A stretch of 64,000 nucleotides of DNA from Centroscyllium fabricii (lineage: Eukaryota): NCBI GenBank assembly GCA_051313645.2, contig JBNRSN020000027.1:41168001-41232000 (forward strand), given 5' to 3'. Below are positions 14,615 to 61,995 of the stretch, piece after piece. The position numbers were made by a program, and so were the translations under genes. The first letter of the stretch is position 1. Each line of letters opens with the position of its first letter. The notes beneath the pieces were generated by a model. The model was not told the DNA's origin. It was given only the letters and a program-made list of their open reading frames with translations, and ran no database searches.

Positions 14615-14615
14615 G

Positions 14616-28587: not shown

Positions 28588-28824
28588 TGGAGGTGCCAGT
28601 GTTGGACTGGGGTGGACAAATGCAAGAAGTCACACAACACCAGATTATAGTCCAACGGTTTTATTTTAAATCACAAGCTCCTTCCTCAGGTGAAAGAGAC
28701 TGACTTAAAGAACGCACATGTGTGATGAAGAGAGAAATCTGATATCTCCCACATCTCACCTCCGTAGAGCTAGACACATAAAGGCTTATTAACATATTTT
28801 AAGTGTTACATTTAAACATTATAC

Positions 28825-28862
<38 letters not shown>

Positions 28863-29601
28863 GAGATAACAATGTGGTCTCTCCAGTTGTTTCACATCAC
28901 ACCTCAGCTGAGGGACATCAAAGCAGTCAAAGATTTTCCAACATATCAAAGGTTGCAGTCACAAAGGGTCAAATGTTAGTCTGCTTTAAATCCCACATCA
29001 TGATTTTTTTAAAAACAGGATTTTTCTTACTTAAAATCGCAGAGCAAGCCGAGGATGGTTCGAGTCTGGATGATAGCCAAGTTCCGCACCCATGAGCACG
29101 GCCTCAACCGTGATATTGGGTTTATGTCACGCTACATGTGACCCCGCCTGACGTAGAGTCATCCAGACTCGAACCATCTTCGGCTTGCTCTGCGATTTTA
29201 AGTAAGAAAAATCCTGGTTTTTAAAAAATCATGATGTGGGATTTAAAGCAGACTAACATTTGACCCTTTGTGACTGCAACCTTTGATATGTTGGAAAATC
29301 TTTGACTGCTTTGATGTCCCTCAGCTGAGGTGTGATGTGAAACAACTGGAGAGACCACATTGTTGTCTCTCTCTATATATGCTATGTTTAAATGTAACAC
29401 TTAAAATATGTTAATATAAGCCTTTATGTGTCTAGCTCTACGGAGGTGAGATGTGGGAGATATCAGATTTCTCTCTTCATCGCACATGTGCGTTCTATAA
29501 GTCAGTCTCTCTTTCACCTGAGGAAGGAGCAGACACTCCGAAAGCTTGTGATTTAAAATAAAACCATTGGACTATAATCTGGTGTTGTGTGATTTCTTGC
29601 C
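28588..29601. mobile_element. Penelope-like insertion with ~450-bp inverted arms
   Basis: Arms 28622-29073 and 29159-29600; spacer encodes GIY-YIG C-terminus IAKFRTHEHGLNRDIGFMSRYM*; TSD aagacaatttg. Confidence 0.88.
29514..29551 (+). ncRNA. Minimal hammerhead ribozyme motif
   Basis: tcac-CTGAGGA-aggag cagaca ctcc-GAAA-gcTT-gtga; stems I and II pair, palindromic AAGCTT in place of stem III. Confidence 0.75.
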
Positions 29602-30073
29602 AAGACAATTTGACATTATACCAGCGCACAAGAGTGATCCTGGGTGTTTCCCCTCTATATCAATGGATGCTTATTTTTTTTTAAAGAGACTTTGTGGTTT
29701 CTCAGTATTAGCATATAGCCACATACTACAGGAGAGGTATTGGGTCTGATTTGCATTTTCGGTGTGCAACCGCCACCCCCCCCTCCCCACCACCCGAGGC
29801 ATTTTGATGGATGGGCCTCATCTGCATAATATTGGTGAATTGCGACTGCTGAACGAGCACTCACAGGCAGGCCCCCTTTCCAGTGGGGGGGGGGGGGGGG
29901 GGGGTACGATAATCCAACAGTTCCTCCATAGAACCAAACTGTAAGTTTGGACTTAAAGGAGGAGTTCCTGTCAGCAGAGGCCATGAACAGCAGCGCCGTT
30001 CTTCTCTCTTTTTGGGGATGGGGAATATAATTCAAGAGCAAAGAGAAAAAAGTGGAAATTAGGAAGACACAAA

Positions 30074-30903
30074 GGGGGTGATTTTCATTCCAGAGTCAGG
30101 TAGGAGGCGGGACTACAACTTTTGGGGTTGTAGTCCCGCCTCCAATCGAGGTGCGGCCAATCCACGTGATTTTAACTTGATTGTCCTTGTTGAGACCGCC
30201 CAGTGGGCTCAGCAGGCCATTTAAGGGCCACCCGGCAACAGGTGATGTCACAGACTGAAATTTCATCTGTCAAGTCGTTTTGACAGATGAAACATCAGTG
30301 TTTCGCAGCTGTTTGAAGCTGTCAAATACTGACAGTCTGACTTCTAACCCGAGTCCTTCTCCACAGACTCAGTTAGAAATCTTTCCTGCACAGAAAGCTG
30401 AATGCTGTCACTTTTGACGGTTCGCAGCCATTCTGCTTTCTGTGCCGGTGAGATGAGGGACTCCCGAGACCTGAAGGAAGGAAGGCTGAAAAGGTAAGAA
30501 AAGGTATGTTAAACTTATTCAATCACTTTAGACACACCAAACACACTTACCTTTGCACTCATGCACACATCACTCACCTGAACACTGACATCTCGACCCC
30601 TCCAAGTCCTTCAACCCGATGGCCCACCTCGCAAACTTGCCGTGGTTTGGAGCCGTCGAGAATCCCACACTTCAGCATTAAAAATAGGGCTTAGACTAGA
30701 AACTGCCTGTTAACTACCTGTTAACAGGCAGTTAATTGGCACTAATCCCTTCCAGCCTCAGGTAGGCAGGTCCCAGTGCGGGGTGGGTACACCCCGCCTT
30801 TGAAACTGGCATGGAGGCGGGTTAGGGTCGGGACCCCGATTTCGGGATTTTAACCCCCCCCCACCCCCAATCCCTACTCCACGGCTCAATGATAATCCAG
30901 GCC
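30074..30903. mobile_element. Harbinger-like MITE (19107 family), TSD AAA
   Basis: Similar along its length to the 19107 copy. Confidence 0.85.
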
Positions 30904-31040
30904 AAAATGTCTAATGGTATGAAGTATAATATGTCACTTCATCATATACATCAGTGAGTAGGACTTGTAGATTCTCACAATTAAAACCTTATGGCTGCAT
31001 TTCACGGCTTTATTTACTAAGCAGCTCCTGAGTACTTTAC

Positions 31041-32137
31041 CTGCTGTGATTCTTGTAATAGAAAGATAAGTTCCATTCTGACTGAGGCTAAGCCGCCACC
31101 CTGAGCTCCATGCAAGCTGCAGTAGCTTAGAAACACTCGGAGCAGAGCTTGATTTTTCCGCAGCCACCGTTTCCGTCTTTCTGCATGTTCTTGCTTCGCC
31201 TGCAGTCTCCGCCGATCAATCTGATGCCTCTCATATGAAGCTCCTTCTGTATTCTCAGTTAATTCTTCCTGGTCAAATGAGCCACTGATATTTTTATCTA
31301 TTTCAACAGCAGAGTCTACTTCAGTTTTATAATTGCAGATTTGATGCATAGCATAGATCTCTTTTTCTAACCAGTTGTACAGTTGAAATCGGAGTTTCCC
31401 TCCATCTACTTCATAGCCTGTAGCCAATGTCCTAAGTTCAGTCATTAGGATTTTCAAGCACGCCCTGAACTTTAACTGCTCTGCTATTACATCAACCCGA
31501 GAGTCAGCAGAAGTGGAATCCTGTCTCGGAAGAGTTCGAGACTCTTCAGGAACACCTTTTGTCTCATCTTTAGCTATATGCTCGATTTCTGCAACTTTCA
31601 TGGTCAACCCACCTGCATCCTCCTCTTCAAATTCATCTTCTTTATCATCCCATTCAAGTTTTAGTGGTTCTTCAGCAAATGTCACTACTGGCGCACTCCA
31701 GTCAAAGCCAGCAGAATTACTGGTTTCCCGGTCCAGACCAGATGAACCTGTTACAGTCTGTGACCAGTCAGCATCTTCAGTGCTTCCTCCTTGTACTGCT
31801 GCACATACAGGTTTTGCACCATTTTGGCCTTGGACACTCAACCTGCAGTTTTCACTTTTGAAGGAGGTTTTTGATTTTTTCATCACCTTTGGGATTTTAG
31901 ACAGCACCTCAAGAGCCAAGACAGGGCAACCGACTTTAAAATGAGCATTTGCTGTGGTGAAAAATAATTTCCTCTCAATGAGGTTGATTTCATCTTCACT
32001 GCTTTTCTCTGTTGCAAGTCCTAAAGTAGCCAAGGAGTCTTCGGGGGAAGCAAAATGTCTTCGCATCAGCAAGGGGTGGGCACGGAGATAATTGTAAAAA
32101 CTGAACACTACTGGATTGCAAGATTTTATGAGGACTC
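31041..32137 (-). CDS. DMXL2: DMXL2 coding exon (VLIKSCNPVVFSFYNYLR...LLQESQQ)
   Basis: cag/gtaaag boundaries, 1097 nt within ORF 31017..32162. Confidence 0.95.
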
Positions 32138-33023
32138 CTGAAACATAATAATAGGAAAACATGCTTAGTGATTACTACCAACAAGGTTAGACATAATCGG
32201 CTCGACATTCAGTAGTGATCCACCTTGCAGGGACAGTTACCCTGCGCACAAATGATGAGGTCCGAGGAGCCCCGGATATCGAGGCTCGGACTTCATTCCT
32301 ATAGAGACTGCGCTGCAGGAGGAGCTCCAATCAGGTAAGTGAAGAAAGTTTGGAACGCTGAAACGCAATGGTAAGTAATGGCCTTGGGGGAAAGTGCAGG
32401 TCTCGTGCGGTGGGTGTGTCGCCGGGGAGCGATCGGTGGCGGGAAGTGATAGCGTCAGCGACCCACAGGATTGGGATCTGGAGGTTGGGGATATTGGTGT
32501 GGAGGGAGGGAGGTCGGTCGGTCGGGGGGCTATGCTTCATGGGGCTGGGGGAGCCAGGCGCATCAGCGAGCGGGATGATGCTTTTTTTTTTGTTGCATGT
32601 GATCTTTAGGGTTGGTTTCTCAGAGTGCAGCCCGTGATGGCACTGGCTGCCTCAGGGTAAACCAATTTTGCAGCAGGGACCTGAAGCAGGCATTTGGCCT
32701 CTGATTTGCATATGGTTAAAGGACACCTCTTGTTTGTCTTCACCAAATATGGCAGGCTGCGCACTTCCGGTCGATAGTATGCGCGTGCTTCCAGACCGCC
32801 ATTTTGGGGACTTAGGAGGCCACACAGTGCCTGAATAAAGGGAGCAATGCGACCCAATTTCTAGGGCTACATGACTAAAGCCTAGAAACAAAAAACAAAT
32901 TACCCAAAATATGCAGGTATCATTATTATCAATTTGACTGTAAGCGTATAGTTTTAAACTGTGAGCGTAATACTGGACATTCAACTGATTAATATTGAAT
33001 ACTCTTCACTTGATTCTGCATAC

Positions 33024-33288
33024 CTGGATGCTCTTCACTACCCTTTGTAGGCTGTTCCAGTAGAGTATCCAATGCCTTAGAGTAATCCTTCAGAGTCCAA
33101 TATGCAATGCTTCGCAGGAATGGATCTGGGTGTAGTTGGCTAGGTACAAATTCAGACCCATCTGCCTTACAGCCAAGAACCTTGCCATAAAGGATGGATT
33201 TACAAGTAGAGGATGTTTCATAGTCGGATTCATACAGACGTGCAATAACCATGGCCAACTGGATATCATCCATTTTTTCTAGACATAC
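33024..33288 (-). CDS. DMXL2: DMXL2 coding exon (VCLEKMDDIQLAMVIARLYE...HPDPFLRSIAYW...EHP)
   Basis: tag/gtatgc boundaries, 265 nt. Confidence 0.93.
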
Positions 33289-33373
33289 CTATCAGGACAT
33301 GGACAAAAACACCATATTTGAGTATATTCAATAAAAGTCAGAAAAACATGCGCCAGCCTGATTAAACAATCGT

Positions 33374-33745
33374 GGATGACACGGTGGCGCAGTGGTTAGC
33401 ACTGCTGCCTCGCAATAAGGAGCTCCTGGGTTTGAATCCTGCTTGGTCCGGGACCTCCCTGCGTGGAGTTTGCATGTTCTCCCCGTGTTCATGTGGGTTT
33501 CCTCCGGGTACTCCGGTTTCCTCCCACCACCCAAAGACATGCAGGTTAGGTGAATTGGAGATACTAAAAATTGCCCATGAGTATGTGTGTGAGATATAGT
33601 TCTTGGAGTTGGGGGTGTCGGGGGATATGGGGAGAGGGTAGGAGGGAGGTGCTGGGTTTGGATGATCAGCCATGATCTCATCAAAAATGGCGGAGCAGGC
33701 TCAAAGGGCCGAATGGCTGACTCCTGCTCCTGTGTTTGTGTGTGT
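33374..33745 (+). mobile_element. V-SINE, second subfamily
   Basis: tRNA-like head, V-domain, CR1 tail; 3' half repeated at 44013-44180. Confidence 0.85.
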
Positions 33746-34100
33746 AAATTATTGTACAGGAAAAATAATATTGTACTCTGTATTGCAACATGTGAATCTC
33801 TGGATATTAAAAATAAGGAAAACCACATTTCCCCCACTCCCCCCAGAAACAAAAAATGACAACTAACCATTTTAACATTAAATGTTATTGAAAGTTAAGA
33901 AATAAATGCTGTATCTATTAGTTTAATAATCTTGGCCCTTTAAACACATACCCTTACAACGTTGCAAAATACTTCACAGCTTTATCTCTGAAGGAGTATC
34001 AATTGCAGCAATTAAAATATTAAAAGCTAAAATGCTGTTTTGACTAGATGTTACCTTGAAAAAAGTCAATTATGATTTGAACAAGGAAGAGCAACATTAC

Positions 34101-34266
34101 CTCAATAGCGTCCTTTAACGAACCAGCCAAAAGGAAAAACGCTGCAGATTGTTCAAAGCGCTGTTTACCCAGCAAAGCAAATGCATTTTTCAAAGCTGCT
34201 TTACGCCATCTGTCTTCACTAAAATTGTGTTTGAAAAACTCAGTCATCTTTTTATCGTGCTGAGAC
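34101..34266 (-). CDS. DMXL2: DMXL2 coding exon (SQHDKKMTEFF...WRKAALKNAFALLGKQRFEQ...DAIE)
   Basis: cag/gtaatg boundaries, 166 nt. Confidence 0.93.
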
Positions 34267-34470
34267 CTGAGAAAAAATACACACAACTTTGAGTTGTATT
34301 CCTGCTGCAGGTGCTAAATTGGTAAATATGCAGTTGCATCAATGCCAGTAATTGGATAAGTAAAAGACAGATTATCTACTTTGTATGCTCCTCTTCATTC
34401 TTCAAATGTTATGCATTTCAAAACATCTTTGGAGTGAATTGAAAAGTTTTATTGGTTCTGCAGAAACCAT

Positions 34471-35156
34471 GGGGGAAAAAAATTGAGTCGCGCCCCCTAC
34501 AGGGCACAAACTTCGCCAGGGCGCTACTTTTAGCGCCGTGAAAAAATTAGCGGCCCCGCGGGTAAAATTCATTGGTAGCACCCAAAGAGGGAAGCGGGGC
34601 GCTACTGGAAGCACCCCGCCTCCCTCTTGGGGCACTGCGAGGCAATATCGCGGCATGTCACACCGCGGTACTGCAGGCCTTCCTCCTCTTCTTAAAGGGG
34701 AGGGGCCTTGTGCAGCGCGACCTGGGGCCCAGCTGGACCACCAGGGATCGGAGTGCCGGCAAAAGCGCACTCCGCGGGGTTGGGGGGTGTCTGGTCAGGA
34801 GGCCGGGGACGGTAACGGGGGCAGGTGCTGGCACGCGGCCAGCAACAAAAATGGCCGCCCGGCACCGCGTCTTTAATTAGCGCCGTCCCAGCCGCAGATA
34901 GGTCCCCTTGACCCCGTCGGACATAGCGTCCGGCAGTAAGTCAGGGGGCGCTACACTGAAGATATCGCCCGGGGCGCTGCACACGACGATGTCATCGCCG
35001 GCGGTGCAGCACCGTGGGACACTAGCAGTTGCCGCCACCGCTAACCTCCCGCTGAATTTTGCGGGAGGCGTTGGTGGCGCCGCGCCCGGGCGCTAGTTGC
35101 TTTGCACCCCTCTTAGGGCGCTAACGGGAGGCGCAAAGCAACCGAACTTTTAGGCC
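34471..35156. mobile_element. GC-rich Harbinger-like MITE
   Basis: GGGGGAAAAAAATT start, flanks cat/gat; inverted relative at 41322-42020. Confidence 0.7.
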
Positions 35157-35576
35157 GATGTCCTTTAACACATGCATGAAAATCTTTTCAAATGTTGTAG
35201 GTAGGTGGCACAGATCATTAAATATAATTCTGCCAGTTCTTTTTTGCCCAGTAACACATAGCTACTGGAAGCACCTCGCCTCCCTCTTGGGGCACTGCAA
35301 GGCAATATCGCGGCATGTCACACCGCGGTACTAAGTTATTTTGTGGTATAAAAATTGTACCTTCTTGTTCAGGTTAGGTCCAGACTTTTACTGATGGACT
35401 CTCAAAACAAATTATTGATGGTGGTTGTAGTTGGTTTCAGACTGCCTCCTCCAGTATAACTTGATCAACTAAGTCAGTGTATCTGTTTTATTTGTTTACA
35501 AAAATGTAATCCACAGGAGGAATTTTAAAAATAATTAAATGAATAGTCAATCAATCCTTTAATACATCTACGTATA

Positions 35577-35981
35577 CAGGTCCGACACCATTAATCCGGA
35601 ACCGGCGGGACCAGGCCGGTGCCGGACTAGTGAAAAATCCGAACGATTGAGGCTTCGGCGAGCGCATGCGCAGACCATTCAAAATGGCCGCCACGCAGGC
35701 CGGTGGCCATTTTGAATGGTCTGCGCATGCCGAAGCATCAATCGTTCGGCGAGGCGCCCGGGCATGCACAGCCAAGCGTGGTGGCCATTTTGCGCATGTG
35801 CAGACAAGCGCGGCAGCCATTTTGCGCATGCGCAGACGTGTCCGACAGTCGGGGAGAGGCCCGGACATGCGCAGCCAAGCGCGGCGGCCATTTTGCGCAT
35901 GCGCAGACCAGTCGGCCGGATTCGTTCCGGCCGATTGATGTTGCCGGATTATCGGTGTCCGGATCAACGGTGCCAGACCTG
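35577..35981. mobile_element. Tigger-like TA-TSD MITE with GCGCATGCGC/GCCATTTTG arrays
   Basis: TA-CAGGTCCGACACC...GGTGCCAGACCTG-TA. Confidence 0.8.
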
Positions 35982-36194
35982 TATTTCCTTCCACCCAGTA
36001 TCTGGGTCAGCTGGAATGAAACATTGTAGTGAACCCACCAACCCGGTCACTGTACCACATACTAACTTAGAAACAGGATCAGCTCTGAATTTGGGCGGGA
36101 TGGGGGGGGATGAGAACAAATCTACACATTCTGAATGAGGCAGATTTTTAGGGGGTTTTGGGGAGCTTGTAATTACACCATTCCAAATTTTAAT

Positions 36195-36977
36195 GGCCCA
36201 GAATTTGCAGTCCAGATGATGGCGAACTGGCAGTGTTCGCTGTTATTCCGCCCTTGAAACTGACCGCAACATTGGGATTTGGTGCATGCGTATGTGGAAA
36301 TCCTGAAGTTGCGGCCTGTCTTTCATAGCTTCGACACAGGCTGCACTGTGACCCCCATCACCACCACCGCCCACCCCCCGCCAACCCCACAGAGCCAGCA
36401 ATCTGTGTAATCACCCAAATCAGGGAAACTGACAAAAACTTTGGCTCTTCCGCAGTAATTACAGTTAAATTCCCCACTAAAAGTTAGACCCAAAGGGATT
36501 AGGTGTAACTGGGGTTTTAACAGCGTACTGACGGCTAAACAAAGGTTATGGCCCTGAAAAACCTAATTTAAATTTTGTGCAGTGTGAAATTTATCAATTT
36601 TAATAAGAATTAACATTTTTAAGAAACTTTTAAAAATATTTTTAAAAGTTTGTTTATCTTTATTTCAATTTTTCCTTTTACCCATCTGAGAGCCCCAATC
36701 TTTGTTTTGCTCTCTAGCATTTTCACAAAGTTGGAATGTAAGAGCTTACCCACTTCCTTGTTCACGGTCGAAGAATTCTACATTTTGAATGGCTGCTCAG
36801 GCAGCTTGCTGACATCACAGCAGTTCGCACAAGGGGATCCCCAGTAAACTCCGCTGATTCGAATTGAACGTCAGAAAACCCGAAGTTCTCGACAGAGTCG
36901 CGAGATCTTTGTGCAGCGTGTACTTCGGGGCCAGGGACGAATGCCTTCGCTTCGCCGCTGACCGCAAATTCCGGGCC
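36195..36977. mobile_element. Harbinger-like MITE, TSD AAT (inverse of 10349 copy)
   Basis: GGCCCAGAATTTGC...GCAAATTCCGGGCC. Confidence 0.85.
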
Positions 36978-37923
36978 AATGTTTATATAGGCTTCTGTCA
37001 GTAATAGTATGAGCTGCATGTTGTTGGAGTACGGTGCTTAGTAGGGTCTTCCGGAGCAACCAAAAGCTAACAGGGTTCACCTCTGAAGACTCGAGAAAGA
37101 CAAAAGCTTTCATCCAGACAGCAAAATTTCTTCATCTCTCTACCATGTCCCATGAGGTTTATTCCTTGAACTCTGCTGGGGTACGCTTCCAAAAGTGCCA
37201 GTTACTATCCAAGACCTCGCCCAACTGTCATTTATTTATGCGTGAACATTACAACGAATTCTGTCTAGCTATTGAACTTCAGTAATCATCACTACCAAGT
37301 CCAAGTATGTCCACAACTGGACATCTATCCACAAAGACAAACACTTCTAGCCAGGATCTTTGGATCACAGGTAGGACCCCAGCTGGGTTTCCCACCTCAA
37401 GGTCAGTTAGTACACCCCCCCCCCCCCCCCCTTCTGTTGCCTCGGCTGAAAATCAGCTAACTTAGCACGACTGCTATAGAAGGTTTGTAGCTGTTATGAA
37501 GCAGCTGCAGTGTTAAAACTCAATCCTGGGAACTTCCTAATCTATATGGTTAAGCTGCACACTGGATAAACATGCTAATCAATCAACAAAATCCTGCTTG
37601 GCTTTCATAATAAATTTCCCAATGCCACTTTGACTCTGTTGATGGTCTTGATTTGTGAATATTGGTGTAACTAATACATGTGGCATTTCCGGGTTCCCTA
37701 ATATTTTTAACCAACTATAAATCATTCTGGTCCTCAGTGCTTCATGTACAATTCCAAACCTTTCACAAAGGTGAATATGCAAAACAGTAACCCAAGGCCC
37801 AATTTGTCAAAATTAGAATTGCTTAAGCATGTTCCTCCATTCTGCAACTATGCCAACACTTCAGTCTAAAATAATACTGACTTGTTGTGCCTGGAGAGCA
37901 GAAGTAAAGTGAATATAGGATAT

Positions 37924-38175
37924 TGCAGGAGTCGCTGGAAATAAACAGACTGCGAGACTTGTAGCAGCTAAAGACAATGCGTGTTGGCTTTATTAACTCT
38001 CCGCATGGACCGAGGGACTAGGCCTCGTCACAGGTATGATATCATCACCCATCGACGACTCTTAAAGGGGCCCTGCCCCGATAACCCAAGCAAGTTCGGT
38101 ACATAACGTGGAGCGATAACAACATTGGCTATACATAGTCAATTGTGTTACTGTCCCTATGTGGTCTCCGCCACA
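37924..38175 (-). mobile_element. Solo LTR, 252 bp, 4-bp TSD ATAT
   Basis: atat-TG...CA-atat; minus strand starts TGTGGCGGAGACCACATAGGGACA and carries AATAAA. Confidence 0.7.
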
Positions 38176-39046
38176 ATATCATTGAACCCAGCCTCCTTTA
38201 ACAGGGCTTTCAGGAGTCTGAGGTGACAGCCACCTAATTCAAGGCAAAATGTTTTGAGTGTCCTTCTAATAATCGCGCTGGAGCACAACTTGAGACAAAA
38301 ATACAGTAGCAATGAATTTTTCAATATTTACTTATACCTACATCAGAGGATCTTGCCTAAAACAATAAAAATAAACTTCTGTTGGACTCTCGAAAAGTGT
38401 CGACATTGAAAAGCAATTTAGTGCAGCTGGTGTCAAAGGGAAGAATACAAGTTCTATAGAAATATTCAAACTAGCTGAAGGACAGCAAAGGCTGGAAAAT
38501 TTGTGAAAAATGATCATGTAGGAGTACATGAAAAGCAGTCAGCACCATGAAGCGTATCACTGAGGATTTAATGTTAACTGTGCCAGAATCACCCACATGA
38601 CCCAAACAACCATCATGGGCTGACGGTGGAAGCTTGGGATAGCACGAGCAACATAAAAGACTCACTCATTCTTTCAAATGAACTAAAGTAAGGAGAAGAT
38701 CCTAATGTTTGAGCAGAAGATAAGAGAAACTAAAATACCCTTCCATACCAAAAGACAACTTTGATGAAACAAAGACGAGACATCACTAAACATTAAATAA
38801 TTCTCAGACCAACTTAGTCAAATCAGTTATAGAAGAAATACAAACAGACAGCCTTATCATTGGGGATTACGTAAGGAAGATGTTTTTGCACAAGAGGTAT
38901 CTTGCATGTGATTCTCAATCTTCAGGGTTAGCTCTGATCGCTTGTGAAAAACACAACTTGGAGAAGAATTAATATTAACGACAAAGCTTCACAGTATTCC
39001 ATTTATACTAACTGACCTTAGTGAGCATTTTCTCTACTGGTCTTAC

Positions 39047-39144
39047 CTGAATAAACCCCAGAGTACAGCCTTTTTCTTTATAGCAAGATAAAATAACGCA
39101 GCATCCAATGCATCATTGTTTCTTTGGAAAGCAGCTTTTGCAAC
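39047..39144 (-). CDS. DMXL2: DMXL2 coding exon (VAKAAFQRNNDALDAALFYLAIRKKAVLWGLF)
   Basis: cag/gtaaga boundaries, 98 nt; not in ORF track. Confidence 0.92.
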
Positions 39145-39569
39145 CTGTGTGAAAAGAGAAAACAAACATTTTTTACAATTCTGTCCTCTCATTTTTGTTC
39201 AATTGGAAACTAGTCATTTGATTAAAATAGATTTTTTTTGACATAATACAGGGGTAGCTACAACTAAAATATGATTGCAGCTGAGTCAGGATGAAATATA
39301 ACTGGGTCTCGAACTTTCAAATGGGAAATATAAGAGTAGTTGTAATAATTACAGATGATAACATAGCACTAAAGCATAAAGAATTCAATAGACAGGTGGT
39401 CCAAATAGAATCCCTTTGGACGGAGCTGAGAATAGCAAGAGGTCAGTTGCACTGCTTGGAGCATATTATGGGCTGCCAAATAGTGGAAAAGAAATTTAGG
39501 ATAAATCTGTAAACAGATTGGTAAATAGAACTGCAGATTAGTAATGTGAAATATATAGAAAAGAGACAG

Positions 39570-40625: not shown

Positions 40626-40644
40626 AGTAAGGAGAAAATATAAT

Positions 40645-40910
40645 GGCCCATATTTTCTGATCCCTACGAGCTGTGTACATGCCCATAAGGAGCTCGCAAG
40701 TGCCGATTTCAAGCATTCGAAGCGCATGCGCTGAAAACCGGCACTTCCAATCTGTCAAGAATCCCCTGGGATACCTGGGCCCTGTACATTTCGTAAAGCA
40801 GAGGCCCAGGAGCGGAAATGTCTGGACCTCTGGAGCCCACAAGGGCGTAGATTTTTTTCCAGATCGGAAGCATCCGCACGCTGGAAGCCTCTGATCGGAA
40901 AATACAGGCC
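40645..40910. mobile_element. Short Harbinger-like MITE, TSD AAT
   Basis: GGCCCATATTTTCTGATC...GATCGGAAAATACAGGCC. Confidence 0.75.
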
Positions 40911-43051: not shown

Positions 43052-43117
43052 CCTGCATTAACTACAACTAGTTCCTGCATTAACTACAACTGGTTCCTGC
43101 ATTAACTACAACTAGTT
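43052..43117. repeat. 22-bp tandem repeat x3 (cctgcattaactacaactagtt)
   Basis: Directly visible, one substitution. Confidence 0.9.
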
Positions 43118-51132: not shown

Positions 51133-51229
51133 CTAAAAGAAAGAAAAAACTGTATTATAACAGTGAGACATTCTAGGTTAAATTTGTAAAAAGAAAATCT
51201 ATCCCTGCTCTGTGACAACTAAATTTATG

Positions 51230-51866
51230 GTATGTTGGCCTTCATAGCGAAAGGGTTTGAGTACAGGAACAAGCATGTCCTGCTGCAGTTGTACAGGGCC
51301 TTGGTGAGACCACACCTTGAGTACCGTGTGCAGTTTTGGTCGCCTTATCAGAGGAAGGGTGTTCTTGACATAGGAGTTCAGCGAAGATTCACAAGGCTGA
51401 TACCTGGGATGGCAGGAATGACGTATGAGGAGAGATTGGGTCGATTAGGCTTATACCCGCTGGAGTTTAGAAGAATGAGAGGGGATCTCATCAAAACTTA
51501 TAAAATTCTGACAGGTCTGGACAAACTAGACGCAGGAAGAATGTTCCCGATGGTCGGGGAGTCCAGAACCAGGGGTCATAGTCTAAGGATAAGAGGTTGG
51601 CCATTCAGGACAGAGATGAGGAAGAATTTCTTCACCCAGAGAGTGGTGAACCTGTGGAATTCTCTACCACAGAATGTAGTTGAGGCCAAGTCATTAAGTA
51701 TATTCAAGAAGGAGTTAGATATAGTTCTAAGAGCTGAAGGTATCGAGGGATATGGGGAGAAGGCAGGGACAGGGTACTGAGTTTGGATGATCAGCCAGGA
51801 TCTCATCGAATGGCGGCGCAGGCTCGAGGGGTCGAATGGCCTACTCCTGCTCCTATCTTCTATGTA
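51230..51866 (+). mobile_element. Young CR1 LINE 3' end
   Basis: Open frame LQLYRALVRPHLEYRVQFWSP...FFTQRVVNLWNSLP plus CR1 3' UTR. Confidence 0.9.
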
Positions 51867-52164
51867 TCACAGACAGGGTGGTACGGGAGTGTTACTAGTG
51901 GCCTCGGTGTCCCCTGGTTAAGGTGTGGGGGCATGAGAGGGAAACCAGCCAGAGTTGCTCCTCCTGAACACGATCTAGTAACCCTTGCTGGACGGTTCAG
52001 ATGTGTGCCTCTCAATTTGACCTTTGCATAACAACTGGTTGAGTTTTCAAAATGTCAATGAAATAGTTTTATATATATCAACTGTTTTGTGTATGTACAT
52101 GTTGCACATACATTTTTACAAGTTTTAAAAAAAAAGACAGAACAGCTAATATAGAAATTAAAAT

Positions 52165-52580
52165 ATAAACAGAAAATGCTGCAAATGCACAGCAGGTTCA
52201 GACTCAACGTTGAGTTCAACAATCAGATCATAACCACGACTCCCATTCTTTCCCCTGCTGCTGCTGGTGAGGATTCTGCTCTGGCCATTTACTCCTCCTC
52301 TAGACCCATCGTTTGTTACTTTACTCGTCCCATCAGCATCCTCTTTCGCCTCATCATCCTTTTTGTCATTTAATCTCTCCTGCCCTCCACCCTATCAGAC
52401 TTTCCCTTTTCTTTTTTGCTCCCCTCCCCTGCCTCTGTCCTTGCTTAAAACCAGTTACAGCTCTAACTTTTTCCAGTTCTGATAAAATTCTGTTCCCCTC
52501 TCCACAGATGTTGCCTGACCAGTGTATTTCCAGAATTTTCTGTTTGGATTTCAGATTTCCAGCCTCCGCAGTATTTTAAT
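52165..52580 (+). mobile_element. Penelope-like 3' end with short inverted tail
   Basis: gactcaacgttgagttcaacaat ORF end and cagatg..cctgacc tail as in the 44612 family. Confidence 0.6.
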
Positions 52581-52889
52581 TTTGAACGTAGAAATCAAAA
52601 TTGGTTTAGATCTGTACGCTGGCAGTTCTTGCCTTTTGATTGCAATGACACCCCAGGGCAAAAGCCAAGGGTGACTATATCAGGATCTTGACCAGACTAT
52701 TAACCAGGACATGAGGCCTCAATATTTGCATGTTCCATGACCCAAGGGTAATAAAACACCCAACAATGTTAACCTCAGCAAGAATTAGACAACGTAAGCT
52801 TGTTTTTAAAATGGTATAAAGAGATACAAAGTTTTACATAGAATGACACATGTTTCTAGACATACGACTCCGTGAACTACATAGTATTA

Positions 52890-53380
52890 CTGTACATAGA
52901 ATTTACAGCACGGAAACAGGCCACTCGGCCCAACAGGTCCATGCCAGTATTCATGCTCCACACGAGCCTCCTCCCACCCTTCTTCATCTAACCCCATCAA
53001 CATATCCTTCTATTCCTTTCTCTCTCGTGGTTATCTAGCTTCCCTTTAAATGCATTTATGCTAGTCACCTCAACTACTCCTTGTGGTAGCGAGTTCTATT
53101 ACCGCTCTCTGGGTAAACAAGTTTCTCCTGAATTCCCTATTGGATTTATTAGTGACAATCTTATATTTATAGCCCCTAGTTCTGGTCTCCACCACAAACA
53201 TCATCTCTATATCTACCCTATCGAACCCTTTCATAATCTTGAAGACCTCTTATCAGGTCACCCCTCAGTCTTCTCTTTTCTAGAGAAAAGATCCGCAGCC
53301 TGTTCAATCCTTCCTGAGTTCTGGTATCATTCTAGTCAATCTTTTTTGCTTTTTCTCCAGTGCCTCTATATCCTTTTTAT
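52890..53380 (-). mobile_element. CR1 LINE 3' fragment
   Basis: catagaatttacagcacggaaacaggccactcggccc is a reverse CR1 tail. Confidence 0.7.
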
Positions 53381-54096
53381 TATAGGAAAACTACGTGCAG
53401 AGTTCTGGTTTCAAGATGAATGTTTTGAAACAATAATAAATGTAGCTAATTCTCAGGCATACTACTGTCTCCAGCTTTTTAAATCGGTTATTAAAAAGGG
53501 TAAAGAAATTATCCCAACACATGCATCCTGTCAAGTAGCAGTTCCATTACTTCCTCCTGTCATGTTGATTTTCATCATGCTTTTCTGTCACAATTAAACT
53601 TGCTATTCATTGTACTTAACACCTCTGACTGAGTGTCTAAACTTGGTCTCCAAGTTGGTGGCATTGTTGCTTACCTACCCACTGAGGCCTCCTAGCTGCA
53701 TCTCCAAAATAGGTAGTGCTATTGCTCCCCACACCACCACAACCACCCACCTTGGACACACTACAATTTGGCTTGCTGTCTGCTCCCTCCTCACTGCCAC
53801 CTCCCGCATGCTTAACGACTCTTTCAACACCTGACCCAACCTCAAGCCCCTGCCATAGCCAACCCATTCTCCATCTGCATCAATCCCACCCAACCCAGCA
53901 TCAAGCTTTGAAGTCCCCTCCTCCTGCAGTGCTAAAAGCTGCATTCATGGCCATTACTGGGACCGTGACATACAACACCACTGGGGAGGAAGATGTGGCC
54001 TTGAAGTCATATTGGACATGCGTGCAGACTTATGGATTACTGAGAGGGGGGGGGGGAATTAAAACTTTCTGTACATTAAATACAAGAAACAATTAC

Positions 54097-54309
54097 CTGC
54101 AGAAGGAGTTGCTCGGATGACTTCCACTCCCTCAGGTAGGTTTAACTGCTGACTGTAGACTAATTCGGAGCTAAGTATCAGCTTGCTAGCAGTCTGAAGA
54201 TTAGCAACTGACGCAGAGCGTGGAAGAGAACTCAAAGTAGAAGTATTTGGAGATAGACTAAAGCCCTTTTCCTCTGGTACAGATAGCTGATTATCTGATG
54301 TGCTCACTT
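54097..54309 (-). CDS. DMXL2: DMXL2 coding exon (VSTSDNQLSVP...ANLQTASKLILSSELVYSQ...ATPSA)
   Basis: cag/gtaatt boundaries, 213 nt; overlaps ORF 54059..54307. Confidence 0.88.
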
Positions 54310-54799
54310 CTGTGATATTAGTTTTGTTGAGAGGAGAAAGAAAAACATAAAAAAGAAAAATTACAACTTTGAATTATTTTTCTAACAATCAGAGATGCTC
54401 CCTCAACAACCCAATATCAGTGAGGGTAAATGCACCACACTCTCTGATGCAAAGTCACACAGACCAAGATGTCTCGGGCTCAATTGTGAGTCTGTGCTGA
54501 GGGATCTAATCTCAGCCAGGGCAGTGCTTGGGACACGATAACTGCCCTCAGCATCCTGTAGTTGCTGGGGTGGGTGGAGATGGGAAATAATAGCTAGGGT
54601 TCCCACTTCTGATTGCTATCCAATCACCCTGCTGGAAAGTACATTTGTGTGACATCAGGCGAGGACAGCAATATGCTGTCTGTAATCCAACCTAGAGTAA
54701 AATAGCCTGGTGACATTTACTATCTATGCTTGTTTCGAAAGAACAGTCACTTGAGGAATTTATTGAAAACTGCTCCCAGTGGAATTGTACCCATACAAT

Positions 54800-55331
54800 G
54801 GGCCAGAATTTGCGGTCGGTCTGACAGCGCACTCTCAGTACAGCGTCATACCGCCTTTGAAACAGACAGCAAGTTTGGAATTTTCACATGTGCTTGCACT
54901 AAATCCTGAACTTACGATCTGTCAAGACAGATGATCCGCACTGACGGGGAAATCCTGATTTCAGGTGCAGAGTGGGGCTAATTGCCCAGCAATTACGTCT
55001 GAAAATTTTACGACTGGTGGAAACAGGCGCAGGGGAGACCTCCTGACAAATCCTCATTACTAGAGCCTTCCGGGATTTAATGTGAATAAACATCCATGTT
55101 ACAAATAACGAGAGGCCTCCCGTTTTCTGATTGGAGCACCGGCTCACGCGATCCCAGGTATAACTCCGCACATGGTGTGCCCCTGGGATCCGTGGGCCAC
55201 TACGCTGTCCTCTACTACACAGCGCCAAACAGCAAGTTCTCGAAGGAGGGTCCCCATCAGGTAAGTGCGCATTCTGTTTGGATGCCAGCGGCGTAATCCG
55301 TAGTTATGCCGCCAACTGCAAAATCAAGGCC
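54800..55331. mobile_element. Harbinger-like MITE
   Basis: GGGCCAGAATTTGCGGTCGG...CCAACTGCAAAATCAAGGCC, flanks aat/att. Confidence 0.65.
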
Positions 55332-55643
55332 ATTGTCATCAAGAAGGGATAAAAAATAACAAATTGGAAGACAATTATAAGAGTTTATATAAAAAGTTAC
55401 TTGTAAAGGAAAGTGTCGTTGGCTTGAAGCATCTTCAAGGAAGTTTATTTTACAATTATATACATATATAATATTCCTTGATGTGTAGAAACCCATTTTT
55501 CAACCTACTACTGAAGAGGTTTAAAAACATACAAAAATGTGCACTGAACATTAAACTGAAGCCAGGTAGTGCGATATAAACTTTATATATATTCTCTCAA
55601 GTTGAATCATAATTTACTGTTCCAACCAAGTAAGTATCATAAT

Positions 55644-56422
55644 GGCCCAGAAATTAGGGCCGCTTCGCGTGAGTACGGAGCGGGTACTCACGCGTGCGGC
55701 CCTTGGAATTGCAGGTAGACGCCATTTCCCGCGCATGCGTGGGATACCTGCAATTCCGATGAAGGGCGGGGGGGGGGGGGGGTGGTCGGGAGCTGCAGCG
55801 CGTTGGCCTGCGTACCAGGAGGTGCGCAGTGCACTTCTGATTTTTTTCCAAGTTTTTCATCGGGGTAAGTATCGGGAAAGTTACGGCTGAAAATATCAGC
55901 CGTAACGACCCCTTTTTAGCAGGCAAGTCTTTATTTTATTGAATTGAAGTATTTTTTTGTTTAAAAAAGATTTTTAATTTTTTTAAACTTTAAAGACAGG
56001 TAAGTATTTTTTTAGGGCAGTTAAAAACGTAAAATATTTTTACAAAATTTTTATTTTTAGTTTAAAATAGGTAATTTATGTTAGTTATAGTAATGTTAAA
56101 AAATGTGATGTTTTTTAAAAATTTATTTTACTGTTTACTGTGTTTTTGGGGCTCTTCCATTTCATAACTTTGACAGATCTCTCTGTCAAAGTTATGAATG
56201 GAGGATTCTTTCCAGTGATTGGCGTCCCGCGGACCACGTGGTCCCGCGGGGAGCTTCTCCACTAACTCTGACGCTGAGTTGCCTCAGCACGTCGCGTGGG
56301 GCCTGGAGCAAGACCTGGAATCGGGATTTCAAACCCCAGAAGAGGACAACGGCAGGTGCGCTCCGTAAGTGTGGGTTGGAGGCTTGCACTCGCAGGAAGC
56401 CTCCAACCCGAATTTCTGGGCC
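55644..56422. mobile_element. Harbinger-like MITE, perfect 12-bp TIR GGCCCAGAAATT, AT-rich core
   Basis: TIRs visible. Confidence 0.75.
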
Positions 56423-56783
56423 ATTAAAATATTCTGGGATGATCAGCGGGCTCCATATCTGTGGTTTATAATTTGAATCGCATAATCTTATGGTCAAAGC
56501 GAATTTATTAAATTCAGGTAGAATAGGTTTCAGCTAAAATACTTTACAGTATCTGTTCAAATTAAAAAGGCCCCTTAGCCCATTTGACTTCATCCATCCA
56601 GAATACCATCCTACTCTCTTACCATTACATCCTGTAGCTATTTCTTAAAGAGTCAAGTGTCCTAGCCTCAACCACTCTTGTTGGCTGTTGATCATCTTCT
56701 GTGTATAGAAATACTTTCTGACCTCTGACTCTATGACCTCTTCTTTTTAGGTAGCACATGAAAACTCTTGCTATTTGGTTATA

Positions 56784-57186
56784 CAGGCTGAGCACCGTTA
56801 ATTCGGCACGGTCGGGGCCAGGACCGTGCCGAATTTTTGAAAAATCCGAATAATTGAAGTTCGCCGAGCGCATGCGCAGCCCATTCAAAATGTCCGCCGC
56901 AAAATTTTGAATGGTCTGCGCATGCGCTTGCCGAGAGGCCCGGGCATGCGCAGCCAAGCGTGGCAGCCATTTTGCGCAAGCGCAGGGCAGTCGGGCAGAG
57001 GCCTTGGCATGCGCAGCCACACGCGGCGGCCATTTTGCGTATGCGCAGGGCAGTCGGGGAGAGGCCTGGGCATGCGCAGCCAAGCGCGGTGGCCATTTTG
57101 CGCGTGCGCGCACCAGTCGGCCAGATTCATGCCGGACTTTTGAAGTTGCCGGACAAACGATGTCCGGATTAACGGTGCTCAACCTG
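56784..57186. mobile_element. Tigger-like TA-TSD MITE with motif arrays
   Basis: TA-CAGGCTGAGCACCGTTAAT...ATTAACGGTGCTCAACCTG-TA. Confidence 0.85.
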
Positions 57187-57291
57187 TATAGTTACGTAGC
57201 ATAAACCTGCTAGTAAAAATTTCATCTATATTTTGTTCTTAAATGAAGGGTTCAGTAAGCCCACTTCAGTACTGTATTTGCAAATACCTAC

Positions 57292-57408
57292 CCACACGAG
57301 GCTGCACAGATTTCAAATGGAGATGCCACATGTGAAGAACAGATTGCCTCTTGTCTCTTTCTATCACCACAAGGTAGAACTTCTCAGAGAATGACGGTGC
57401 ACGATATC
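57292..57408 (-). CDS. DMXL2: DMXL2 coding exon (YRAPSFSEKFYLVVIE...HMWHLHLKSVQPRV)
   Basis: ag/gtaggt boundaries, 117 nt, phase 1-1. Confidence 0.9.
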
Positions 57409-57967
57409 CTTAAATAACAGAAGTTTAAATAACTCAAAAAGCAACCAAAATTACCACTGTAATCAAAGACAGTGTTACAATAAAATTCTGTGCCTGGCAA
57501 TCATTTATGAAAATCCAGCATAAGTGCAGAAGATTGAAAACAAAAAGAAAGAAATGTCATTTACATAGTGGTATATCATGTCCTCAGAGTGTCTCAAAGT
57601 GTTTCTGAAGTGTAGTCACGGTTAGCCAGGCAAACATGGCAGCCAATTGTGTACAGCAAATAAGATGAATGCCCAGTTGATGGAACAGTGTTGGGAAACT
57701 CCCTGCTCTTATTCGGAGTGGCGACATTGGATCTTTTACGACCACTTAACATTTCATCCAAACATCAGCACCTCAACAATGCAGTGTTCCCTCAGTATTG
57801 CACGATACATCAGTTTAGATTATATGCTTAAATCCTGGAATGCGGCTTGAACCCATCGCCATCAGACTCGGAGGCAAGACTGCTACCAACTAAGCCAAAG
57901 TGATATTATATATATGATTTAATCAAAGTGCACCATGTTAAAATCCCTTATAATTGATGTTGCATAC

Positions 57968-58085
57968 CTTGTGCAGGTTGAGTAAAAGGAAATTCTTGCT
58001 CCTTATTCATTTCTTCTTTCTGTGGTTTATATCCCAAAATAAAATCTTCTTGAAACACATGAAGTAGTTGTGTGTTTGAGCCACA
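57968..58085 (-). CDS. DMXL2: DMXL2 coding exon (CGSNTQLLHVFQEDFILGYKP...PAQ)
   Basis: ag/gtatgc boundaries, 118 nt, recognisable peptide. Confidence 0.9.
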
Positions 58086-58354
58086 CTGAAACAGGAATAT
58101 AGTAAGAAGTGGTGTTAGTCACACGCATGCATAATGAATAGTATAAAATGATCACTGAAAATTATTTGCAATTTTAATCGAACTGTCTTTATTAAACATG
58201 CTGTTATACTGTAGGTCCTAGCTGTCTCATGCCAGTACCTGTACAGCATGATGCGGGGCTGTTCCAAGTTATGCTGCCAGCTGTGCATCGCTTGCCCACC
58301 AGTGATAAAGAAGCCTGCTCACCAGTTAGTCAATTAGCTCTCTCCTAACACAAA

Positions 58355-59153: not shown

Positions 59154-59768
59154 AATGTCTGGGCAATTTTTAAACTTGGTTTGGATGGAGTTATTTTACA
59201 TACATTGTGAAGCCCAAATGGCGAGACTACAACCTGATTTTGGAGTTTTGCCCACATAGCAATAACTGCACTTCAAAAGAAATTCATTCGTTACAAAGCA
59301 CTCTGGGTTGTCCCAAGATAAGGCACTAAATAAATACAAGTTCTTTACTCATTTGTAACACTGCTGTTACGTTGCATCAACGCAAAACTGATGTAAAATG
59401 GCACATTAAATTTGGATTTACAAATACGATGGCATGACTATTATCTGCAATTTTGATTTAAAAAATGCACTTCTCATAGAATCATAGAATCCCTACAGCG
59501 CAGGTAGAGGCCATTTCGGGCCATCGAGCCTGCACCGACACAGATCCCACCCTATCCCCGTAACCCCACATATTTAATCCCCCGAACACTAAGGGTCAAT
59601 TTATCCTGGCCAATCAACCTAACCCACACATCTATTAAACAAGTTACAAAATAAAGAACACAAAGCAGCATGTCAAAAAAACCCCGAACCATCAAAATGA
59701 CATTGCATCTTCTAATATGCTGGTGGGTATTGTATAGCAACTGTAATAAATCATTCCTGAATCATATA

Positions 59769-60636
59769 CAAGTTGTGCACCTTTAATCCGCGCAGATCAT
59801 TCACCATGGCTGGCAAAGTTTTTAATGATCGGCGCATGCGCTGCCGAACGATCCCGGGCCGGGCCTTCCCGAGCCTCGCCTTACCGGGCCGGGGCTTCCC
59901 GAGCCAGGCCGGGGCTTCCCGAGCTGGGCCTCGCCTTACCAAGCCGGGGCTTCCCGAGCCAAGCCGAGCCTTACCGAGCCGGGGCTTCCCGAGCCGGGCC
60001 TCGCCTCTCCTTACCGAGCCTCGCCTTCCCGAGCCGGGCCAGGGCTTCCCGAGCCGGGCCTTGCCTCGCCTTACTGAGCCTTCCCGAGCCAGGCCGGGGC
60101 TTCCCGAGCCGGGCCTTGCCTCGCCTTACTGAGCCTTCCCGAGCCAAGCCGAGCCTTACCGAGCCGGGGCTTCCCGAGCCAGGCCTCGCCTCTCCTTACC
60201 GAGCTGGGGCTTCCCGAGCTGGGCCTCGCCTTACCAAGCCGGGGCTTCCCGAGCTGGGCCGAGCCTTACCAAGCCGGGGCTTCCCGAGCCGGGCCGAGCC
60301 TTACCAAGCCGGGGCTTCCCGAGCCAAGCCGAGCCTTACCAAGCCGGGGCTTCCCGAGCTGGGCCTCGCCTCTCCTTACCGAGCCGGGCCAGGGCTTCCC
60401 GAGCCGGGCCTTGCCTCGCCTTACTGAGCCTTCCCGAGCCAGGCCGGGGCTCTCCGAGCCAGGCCTTACCGAACGATAAGCGCATGCGCAGACCACTCAG
60501 AATGGTCGCCGGCCTTTTGCGGTGGCCATTTTGAATGGTCCACGCATGCGCTCGCCGAAGCTTCAATCGTTCGGGATTTTCACTTTCCCGGCATGGGCCT
60601 GGTCCTGCCCGTGCCGGATTAACGGTGCTCAACCTG
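59769..60636. mobile_element. Tigger-like TA-TSD MITE with expanded GC-rich minisatellite (about 59855-60470)
   Basis: TA-CAAGTTGTGCACCTTTAATCCG...CGGATTAACGGTGCTCAACCTG-TA; ccgagccggggcttc/ccttac units. Confidence 0.8.
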
Positions 60637-61152
60637 TATAAACAAACTAAGGAGAGAACCATAAATAAACTAGATTGGAGCATTATAATTAGTACCTAAT
60701 TAATAATGTTCAAATCTTTAGGAATAACCAGCCTTCCTTAGACACTGGAGCCACTTTGTCCAGAATTGCTACTTCCTGTACCATGCAAGTCCAGGTCACA
60801 AAATATGGAACATGGAAACAGGAGTAGGCCATTCTGTTCAGCATTTGTGCAGGACGTTTTCCAACTATTCAGAATACATTTTCTAAACAAGTATATACCG
60901 TTGAATGAAATAATCCAATCTGCAAAATCAAACTGGTCCCTTAAAATAGGCATAGCCAGGAGATAAAAGACAGATTTTTTTTAATCCCTTGAGGAAAGAA
61001 GAAAATGATTCCCATTAAGTAATCTAATCTACTTTTTTCCTTAGGTCTGTCCATTCAAACAATACTTGAGAGTTAGCTACCTTAGCATTTTATTCATTTA
61101 AAAAAAGTCCTCACAAATATGAAGTCAAATGATGCCTAAAGAAAGTTACCAT

Positions 61153-61995
61153 GATGTGGAGGTGCCGGTGTTGGACTGGGGTGGACAATTGTAAGAAGTC
61201 ACATGACACCAGGTTACAGTCCAACAGTTTTATTTGAAATCACAAGCTTTCGGAGCGCAGCTCCTTCATCAGGTGCATGTAAATATATTTAACTAGGGAG
61301 AGAACAATGTAGTCTCTCCAACTGTTCAACATCACACCTCAGCAGAAAGACATCAAAGCAATCAAAGGTGTTCTAACATATCAGTCAGGCATCAGCCTGA
61401 GATCAATGAGGTGCAGTCACAAAGGGTCAAATATTGCAGTCTGGTGTCTGTGTGAAAACCCACAGAATGGTTTATTAAAAAAAAAAGGATTTTTCTTACT
61501 GGAAATCGCAGCTGCATCCGTGTAGTGAGAACAAGCCAAAGACGACTCGAGTCTGGATGACTCTACGTCAGGCGGGGTCACATGTAGAGCGACATGAAGC
61601 CAATATCACGGTTGAGGCTATGCTCATGGGTGCGGAACTTGGCTATCAGCCTCTGCTCGACGATTTTGCATTGTGTGTCTCGAAGGCCGCCTTGGAGAAT
61701 GCTTACCCGAAGATCGGAGGCTGAATGTCCTTGACTGTTGAAGTGTTCCCCGACTGGGAGGGAACACTCCTGCCTGGCGATTGTTGTGCGGTGTTCGTTC
61801 ATCCGTTGTCATAGTGTCTGCATGGTCTCGACGATGTACCATGCTCCGGGGCATCCTTTCCTGCACCGTATGAGGTTGACAAACTCGACCAACATTGTCT
61901 ACCTCATACGTTGCAGGAAAGGATGCCCCGGAGCATGGTACATCGGCGAGACCATGCAGACACTACGACAATGGATGAACAGACACCGCACAACA
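61153..61995 (-). mobile_element. Penelope-like element 3' portion with GIY-YIG remnant and inverted segment
   Basis: IVYLIRCRKGCPGAWYIGET motif; ...LPVGEHFNSQGH...LNRDIGF; same tail as 28588. Confidence 0.88.
61241..61275 (-). ncRNA. Minimal hammerhead ribozyme motif, sense to DMXL2
   Basis: Reverse complement: cac-CTGATGA-aggagc tgc gctcc-GAAA-gcTT-gtg. Confidence 0.75.

What the first reader, a model, noticed from the sequence alone, without database searches (positions are those of the whole stretch)
28671..61275. Minimal hammerhead ribozymes with apparent bias against intact copies on the host-sense strand
Seen: intact CUGANGA/GAAA cores with palindromic AAGCUU at 29514 (+), 40265 (+) and 61241 (-). 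On the DMXL2-sense strand, the 28671-28693 copy has a 15-nt deletion removing GAAA and stem II while its mirror arm is intact; copies ending at 3352 and 39944 break inside stem II; the 44676 copy has TCGATAA instead of CTGATGA. Known: Penelope-like elements carry minimal hammerheads thought to cleave as dimers. Inference: selection against intronic self-cleavage, or the ribozyme fold sets truncation points. The sample is small and 61241 is a counter-example.
Basis: partly seen in the sequence, partly recalled or inferred. Interest (0 to 1): 0.7.

Follow-up and report, generated by a model that had tools for sequence, protein, structure and literature searches.

The report
Penelope hammerhead relics, no strand bias
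These are real copies of the tiny self-cutting RNA motif carried by a common Penelope-type jumping gene in shark introns; intact copies sit about equally on both strands of host genes, and the breaks likely come from how the element inserts, not from selection by the host.

Summary
The motifs and breaks are in the sequence. They are minimal hammerheads in the terminal repeat of a Penelope-like retroelement (likely Neptune/Nematis type) in DMXL2 introns of a shark; one exact pattern occurs 74,182 times genome-wide. The strand-bias idea failed its test: in 1.8 Mb from other gene bodies, intact motifs were 28 sense versus 34 antisense (p=0.53); family-1 arms intact 20/46 versus 24/51. A bias weaker than about twofold is not excluded. 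Likely cause: reverse-transcription stops and microhomology joining during insertion. Known kind of element; the scan reported a similar relic in another shark genome. Low interest, one modest mechanistic lead.

The parts
28586..29073 (-). Family-1 Penelope-like insertion, tailed arm (host-sense); hammerhead broken by a 15-nt deletion at 28671-28693
   Evidence: the same deletion junction occurs at 47 places genome-wide in several subfamily backgrounds
29068..29600 (+). Inverted tail-less arm of the same insertion; carries the last codons of the ORF and the intact hammerhead; 11-nt target-site duplication flanks 28586-29600
29514..29551 (+). Intact minimal type I hammerhead (C3 at 29518, predicted cut 29547|29548), antisense to DMXL2
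39834..39944 (-). Family-1 tailed arm, 5'-truncated in stem-loop II at the inversion junction
39945..40352 (+). Inverted tail-less arm; 12-nt target-site duplication flanks 39834-40352
40264..40300 (+). Intact minimal hammerhead (C3 at 40268, predicted cut 40296|40297), 3-bp stem I, antisense to DMXL2
61150..61995 (-). Family-1 tailed arm with the endonuclease-coding 3' end of the ORF (in-frame stop at about 61810) and a short inverted piece at 61895-61995
61241..61275 (-). Intact minimal hammerhead (C3 at 61272, predicted cut 61244|61243), sense to DMXL2
3250..3353 (-). Family-1 solitary tailed arm, 5'-truncated inside stem II
44623..44712 (-). Family-2 copy, sense to DMXL2, with inherited UCGAUAA core (U3-A8 pair, C4); structurally complete
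2988..3083 (+).
52420..52545 (+).
411..58106 (-). DMXL2 coding exons (22 matched stretches, residues about 810-2736); the gene continues beyond both ends of the window

Best explanation
The motifs are minimal hammerheads in the terminal repeat of dead, 5'-truncated Penelope-like insertions, intact about equally often on both host strands, and their breaks likely arise during insertion or by later strand-blind decay rather than by selection against cutting the host RNA. Likely mechanism: the element's endonuclease nicks both target strands about 12 nt apart (shown: 8-17 nt duplications); reverse transcription starts from both nicks at two internal sites about 35 nt apart (shown in vitro for an anole element; here inferred from one tailed and one tail-less arm); each cDNA stops early, most often at the 5' edge of the ribozyme (pile-up shown; cause inferred: stall after the structure, or the RNA's start site); the two cDNA ends are then joined head to head, preferably where the ribozyme's own palindromes give microhomology (junction enrichment shown; timing inferred). 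The relics would be harmless in pre-mRNA because they lack helix III, need a same-strand partner and, in the anole element, the element's own protein, and because in an inverted pair the sense copy would be buried in a long duplex with its mirror arm (inferred).
For: No strand bias: strict intact 28 sense / 34 antisense, loose 39 / 45 in 180 tiles (90 from plus-strand, 90 from minus-strand genes); family-1 arms intact 18/41 versus 18/43 in the first 160 tiles and 20/46 versus 24/51 with the last 20 (p=0.84). Target-site duplications of 8 nt or more in 28 of 28 inverted pairs examined versus 1.6% at random. Truncation rate 1.61 per 100 nt at +5..-19 (C3=0) versus 0.38 at -20..-394, ratio 4.2. 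Fold-back on AAGCTT in 26 of the first 50 of 1,218 short pairs and 501 exact cases genome-wide versus 7/153 expected; perfect fold-back on the stem II AGCT in 18 of the first 50 of 2,408 pairs versus 5/442. Tail, inverted copy and junction palindromes are described PLE traits (PMC8557442, PMC3846280); two RT start sites, both-strand priming, protein-assisted cleavage and dispensable catalysis are in PMC11167929; no monomer and low dimer cleavage in PMC4209133.
Against: Every tally leans slightly antisense (28:34, 39:45, insertion level 9:13 by hand count), and family 2 with a loose core rule gave 20/47 versus 31/52 (p=0.11); a true sense share of 0.40 is not excluded (p=0.24). Gene strands outside DMXL2 rest on same-strand Pfam exon hits, not annotation. 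Hazard bins were chosen after seeing the data, arms of a pair are not independent, and 200 end points were read by eye. The peak at -19..+5 is not explained by a palindrome and may be a start site. Fold-backs could be post-insertion deletions between the palindromes of the two arms.
Confidence: 0.8

Rival explanations
1. Selection removes intact hammerheads from the sense strand of introns because they cut the pre-mRNA; the effect is real but weak (under twofold).
For: Window pattern 1/4 versus 2/2; all tile tallies lean antisense; tandem retrozymes in Xenopus are reported as depleted from introns (10.64898/2026.07.22.740005, passages; strand not analysed there).
Against: p=0.53, 0.59, 0.84 for the main tallies; point-mutated family-1 motifs were 6 sense versus 12 antisense, the wrong direction; 28 intact sense copies stand in gene bodies; the UCGAUAA core is inherited.
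Confidence: 0.1
2. The ribozyme cuts the template RNA in vivo, and 5' ends of insertions are fossils of that cut.
For: 5 of 84 tile arms start at +28..+32; one locus (G000:C1:18541206) has an upstream copy ending in an A run joined exactly to the first base after the cut.
Against: In 200 further arms only 3 of 26 ends in +13..+36 fall at +28..+30 (p=0.65); most arms run through the cut site; no read-start or read-end pile-up at the cut in two RNA runs of a related species (weak test); catalytic mutants insert normally in vitro (PMC11167929).
Confidence: 0.07
3. The pile-up of 5' ends has nothing to do with the fold: it marks the element's transcription start just upstream of the ribozyme, and the fold-backs are later deletions between palindromes in the two arms.
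For: The peak lies at the 5' edge rather than within the helices; many pairs end symmetrically at about -4 to -6; an initiator-like TCACT is reported in rotifer pLTRs (PMC3846280) and TCACTTC lies at -11..-5 in one subfamily; long inverted repeats are deletion-prone (general knowledge).
Against: Ends are spread over about 25 nt and the rate is also twofold raised inside the ribozyme (+6..+30, p=0.006); about half of the arms run far past this point, so their template extended beyond it.
Confidence: 0.3

Closest known systems
Minimal hammerheads (min-HHR) in pLTRs of metazoan Penelope-like elements (Cervera and De la Pena 2014, PMC4209133)
   Same: Type I core, extra base between 9 and 10.1, G10.1-C11.1, palindromic 15.2-16.2, no helix III, short helix I; mostly solitary or in opposite-strand pairs 100-700 bp apart; U3-A8 core variant
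   Different: Host is a shark (none named in the parts read); copy number 74,182 for one exact pattern versus about 4,000-9,000 reported for coelacanth and Xenopus (different search rules); a U3-A8 core with C4 as a mobile subfamily
Neptune/Nematis clades of endonuclease-bearing PLEs (Craig et al. 2021, PMC8557442)
   Same: RT followed by C-terminal GIY-YIG-type domain with internal Cys pair, CX4CxxC linker motif, inverted 5'-truncated copy, 30-40 nt tail at one end
   Different: Clade not confirmed by a tree; no full-length copy examined
Poseidon element of Anolis carolinensis (Frangieh et al. 2024, PMC11167929)
   Same: Two 3' end points about 35 nt apart downstream of the hammerhead; both target strands used; no RNA-seq ends at the cut site
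   Different: That element is Poseidon clade with the ORF starting in stem II; truncation hot zones and junction palindromes were not mentioned in the parts read
Non-LTR retrozymes (Li et al. 2026, 10.64898/2026.07.22.740005)
   Same: PLE-derived type I hammerheads in vertebrate genomes
   Different: Retrozymes are head-to-tail arrays; the window's copies are single or head-to-head
Conserved intronic hammerheads of amniotes (RECK type; PMC6155905, passages)
   Same: Type I hammerhead inside an intron, some in sense orientation
   Different: Those are conserved across species with canonical helices; these are interchangeable members of a high-copy repeat with target-site duplications

Membership tests
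Endonuclease-bearing Penelope-like element | Reverse transcriptase domain in the ORF | tested here: met
   A longer family copy (L011:7399-8991) has the YIDD motif and a Pfam RVT_1 hit at E=1e-4, below the curated cut-off
Endonuclease-bearing Penelope-like element | C-terminal GIY-YIG endonuclease with CCHH motif | tested here: inconclusive
   VYLIRCRKGCPGAWYIGET and the C-terminal end are seen directly (motif reading from PMC8557442 and recall), but Pfam gave no hit on 4 pieces covering it
Endonuclease-bearing Penelope-like element | Inverted 5'-truncated copy next to the insertion | tested here: met
   36 automatic pairs among 90 arms, one mispaired; 2 of 4 family-1 loci in the window
Endonuclease-bearing Penelope-like element | 30-40 nt tail at one end | tested here: met
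   Arms end at about +120 or about +85; 41 tailed and 43 tail-less of 84
Endonuclease-bearing Penelope-like element | Target-site duplication | tested here: met
   28 of 28 chosen pairs have 8-17 nt shared flanks, mostly 12-13; 1.6% at random; none found for the solitary 61150 and 3250 copies
Neptune/Nematis clades | CX2-5CxxC linker motif before the nuclease | tested here: met
   CHSNLCKTC in L011, CHGNLCKTC in L136; definition from PMC8557442
Neptune/Nematis clades | Placement in the RT phylogeny | not tested
   No reference PLE proteins were fetched
Minimal type I hammerhead | Core boxes, stem II, stem I, palindromic helix III remnant | tested here: met
   Structural scan; the monomer fold shows stems I and II for 29518 and 61272, an alternative fold for 40268, none more stable than shuffles; Rfam gave no hammerhead hit
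Minimal type I hammerhead | Self-cleavage as dimer or with protein help | not testable with these tools
   Co-folding two copies paired them through stem II, not helix III: uninformative
Non-LTR retrozyme | At least two head-to-tail units each with a hammerhead | tested here: not met
   All window copies are single or head-to-head
Domesticated intronic hammerhead (RECK type) | Canonical helix III | tested here: not met
   Only the AGCU remnant
Domesticated intronic hammerhead (RECK type) | Conserved at the orthologous position across species | not tested
   No related vertebrate genomes are held for this window

The most novel reading that the evidence does not exclude
The Penelope hammerhead is used as a structural device during integration: it halts reverse transcription at its 5' edge and its self-complementary helices anneal the two cDNAs primed from opposite target strands, which builds the head-to-head insertions and would explain why the fold is kept although cleavage is dispensable for insertion in vitro and core variants (UCGAUAA, CUUGACGA) still spread.
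Probability: 0.15. Interest if true: 0.55.

Novelty: new member of a known kind. Interest (0 to 1): 0.25.

Why it matters
The negative result says that intact minimal hammerheads are tolerated in sense orientation in shark introns, in line with their low or protein-dependent activity. The side result matters more: about 144,000 arms with a shared anchor make this genome a large fossil record of Penelope integration, a poorly understood process, and the junction map gives testable predictions (palindrome-guided joining, a stop zone at the ribozyme's 5' edge) for the existing in vitro system.

Tried and rejected
Strand bias: tested on 180 tiles and rejected as a strong effect. Rows dropped before the family-1 count: 9 of 99 BLAST arms (5 short fragments embedded in another repeat, 4 arms of one old pair carried by another repeat); two arms were reclassified by hand as intact (tile edge, internal deletion downstream); one automatic pair (L062) was wrong, so discordant pairs are 7:7, not the printed 8:7. 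Fossil of in vivo cleavage: first seen as 5 of 84 arms at +28..+32, not repeated in 200 further arms. Automatic end-mapping was confounded by the inverted partner and was replaced. Rfam found no hammerhead; its MIR6140 hit at 61816-61961 is the element's inverted repeat. Pfam did not recognise the nuclease pieces. Folding z-scores were uninformative, as was dimer co-folding. Run search: no RNA holder listed; two raw RNA runs from a related species, one study, gave 1,099 and 1,906 and 1,359 and 2,947 family reads in both mate directions with no begin or end peak at the cut; library strand and species mismatch make this weak. Control repeats in the same tiles also show no strand bias (164:155; an overlapping query 152:149; 10:11), so these introns may purge little in general. 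An intergenic comparison was not made. Twenty further planned tiles from giant genes were not obtained, so those genes are untested.
Full report
Setting. The window is G000:C789:41168001-41232000 of a 7.2-Gb genome. Its large exon matches shark DMXL2 at 92-93% identity. A shark DMXL2 protein maps 22 stretches on the minus strand from 58106 down to 411 and further exons on both sides of the window, so every locus discussed is intronic and the minus strand is host-sense.

Observation. The three intact motifs, the 15-nt deletion, the two truncations and the TCGATAA core are all present. A structural scan (core, stem II, palindrome, stem I) gave 57 hits in the window plus 160 tiles and 0 in the reversed control. 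Rfam does not model these minimal forms.

What they are. Family 1 (3250, 28586, 39834, 61150) is the 3' end of a Penelope-like element. The 61150 copy carries the nuclease-coding end of the ORF in the same sense as the ribozyme; a longer copy elsewhere (L011) carries RT motifs, a weak RVT_1 hit and a CX4CxxC linker, which PMC8557442 gives for Neptune/Nematis. Pfam did not recognise the nuclease. One exact ribozyme pattern has 74,182 matches and a downstream anchor 144,486. Most insertions are head-to-head pairs of one arm with a 35-nt tail and one without, flanked by a target-site duplication (28 of 28 pairs examined). These are published PLE traits (PMC8557442 and PMC3846280, passages); the tail is explained by two internal RT start sites with both target strands primed (PMC11167929, parts 1-2 of 4 and passages). 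Family 2 (2992, 44706, about 52479) is a second hammerhead-bearing repeat; its ORF was not examined.

The 44676 copy is not host-damaged. Its core UCGAUAA keeps the 3-8 pair as U3-A8 and is shared by 1,815 exact copies with several loop variants. U3-A8 is a known natural covariation and U4C lowers activity in vitro yet suffices in a viroid (PMC3088659, passages; PMC4209133, parts 1-2 of 4). The 28671 deletion joins two AGC triplets and the same junction occurs at 47 places.

Test of strand bias. Gene spans of known strand were taken from same-strand CUB, myosin-head and spectrin exon hits and from DMXL2's flanks; 180 tiles of 10 kb were fetched, 90 per gene strand. Strictly intact motifs: 28 sense, 34 antisense (p=0.53; 95% interval for the sense share 0.32-0.58); loose rule 39 and 45. 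Family-1 arms, after dropping 9 of 99 BLAST arms that lie in other repeats: intact 18/41 sense and 18/43 antisense in the first 160 tiles, 20/46 and 24/51 in all. Arms that span the motif but are defective: 6 sense, 12 antisense. Against my reading: all tallies lean antisense; insertions intact on one strand only were 9 sense and 13 antisense by hand count (p=0.52); family 2 gave 7/47 versus 10/52 strictly (p=0.60) and 20/47 versus 31/52 loosely (p=0.11). A twofold depletion is unlikely (p=0.035), a 40:60 split is not excluded (p=0.24). All four tailed arms in the window are sense, but outside it they are 16 sense and 25 antisense. Control repeats show no bias either. Gene strands outside DMXL2 are inferred, and expression was not checked.

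Where arms break. With C3 as 0 and the predicted cut between +28 and +29, 5' ends of 84 tile arms and 60 C1 arms occur at 1.61 per 100 nt at risk in +5..-19, 0.76 in +6..+30 and 0.38 in -20..-394 (ratios 4.2 and 2.0; bins chosen after the fact, pairs not independent). In 200 listed arms read by eye, 91 were truncated within view, 3 had internal deletions and 106 ran on; 48 ends fell in -12..+5 versus 26 in +13..+36 (p=1e-4), and only 3 of those 26 at +28..+30 (p=0.65). Among short inverted pairs, 26 of the first 50 of 1,218 with a gap up to 16 nt are perfect fold-backs on AAGCTT (501 exact cases; 4.6% expected if junction combinations were equal), and 18 of the first 50 of 2,408 with a gap of 17-33 nt fold back on the AGCT of stem II, with about 9 more sharing stem-loop II (1.1% expected). 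The window's own breaks (+18, +11) lie in the mildly raised zone and are not palindromic. Palindromes at PLE inversion junctions were noted in rotifers (PMC3846280); what is added here is that they are the ribozyme's helices.

Mechanism. Shown: element identity, paired arms, duplications, absence of a strong strand bias, hot zone, palindrome-centred junctions. Inferred: twin priming from both nicks, early stop near the ribozyme's 5' edge, microhomology joining. A start site at about -5 to -10 and post-insertion deletion between the arms' palindromes are open alternatives. The relics likely do not cut host RNA: a related minimal motif showed no monomer and low dimer cleavage (PMC4209133), the anole motif cleaves only with element protein (PMC11167929), arms of an inverted pair are on opposite strands and cannot form the dimer, and in pre-mRNA they would pair with each other (98% complementary over 216 nt). 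Two RNA runs from a related species show no read ends at the cut, a weak test.

Literature on the claim. Searches for hammerhead orientation in introns (2 papers listed, listing only, neither on this point), shark Penelope hammerheads (1 review, passages), truncation at the ribozyme (25 of 36 listed) and junction microhomology (15 of 23 listed) showed no report of either a strand bias or a truncation hot zone; the library lacks most subscription papers. The 2026 retrozyme preprint (part 1 of 5 and passages) reports intron depletion in Xenopus and has no mention of orientation or sharks in its main text; its supplements could not be seen and may list sharks.

Verdict. Real motifs, known kind, headline hypothesis not supported, secondary idea partly right in a non-catalytic sense. 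Interest 0.25.

Noticed in passing
L056:4408-4627, L062:2078-2176, L104:724-933; several C1 rows: A family-1 subfamily with an extra U in the core (CACCUUGACGA) recurs on both strands, so a non-canonical core spread as a mobile lineage.
   Followed up: no
G000:C1:18541206-18541292: An upstream copy ending in an A run just after the AATAAA region is joined exactly to the first base after the predicted cut; a possible single trace of a cleaved, polyadenylated template.
   Followed up: partly
L067:2833-3038 and L092:5591-5796: The same old inverted pair with identical flanks at two loci: a Penelope insertion carried inside another repeat.
   Followed up: no
L027:4198, L040:4726, L110:9928, L134:4131, L137:9694: A 30-50 nt piece of the family-1 terminal repeat is embedded in a different GC-rich repeat family.
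   Followed up: no
window 14622-18527 (+): Long gag/pol-like open frames of an LTR-retrotransposon-like insertion in a DMXL2 intron, antisense to the gene (label from recall of the motifs).
   Followed up: no
window 61782-61995: Short inversion at the 5' end of the Penelope copy forms a 101-nt hairpin that Rfam scores as MIR6140 below threshold; not a microRNA call.
   Followed up: partly
180 gene-body tiles: LINE-like 3' ends show no antisense preference in these introns (164 sense, 155 antisense), unlike the bias recalled for mammalian introns.
   Followed up: partly
window 59789-60507 and 12541-12860: Tandem arrays (5-nt-based unit; 29-nt unit).
   Followed up: no
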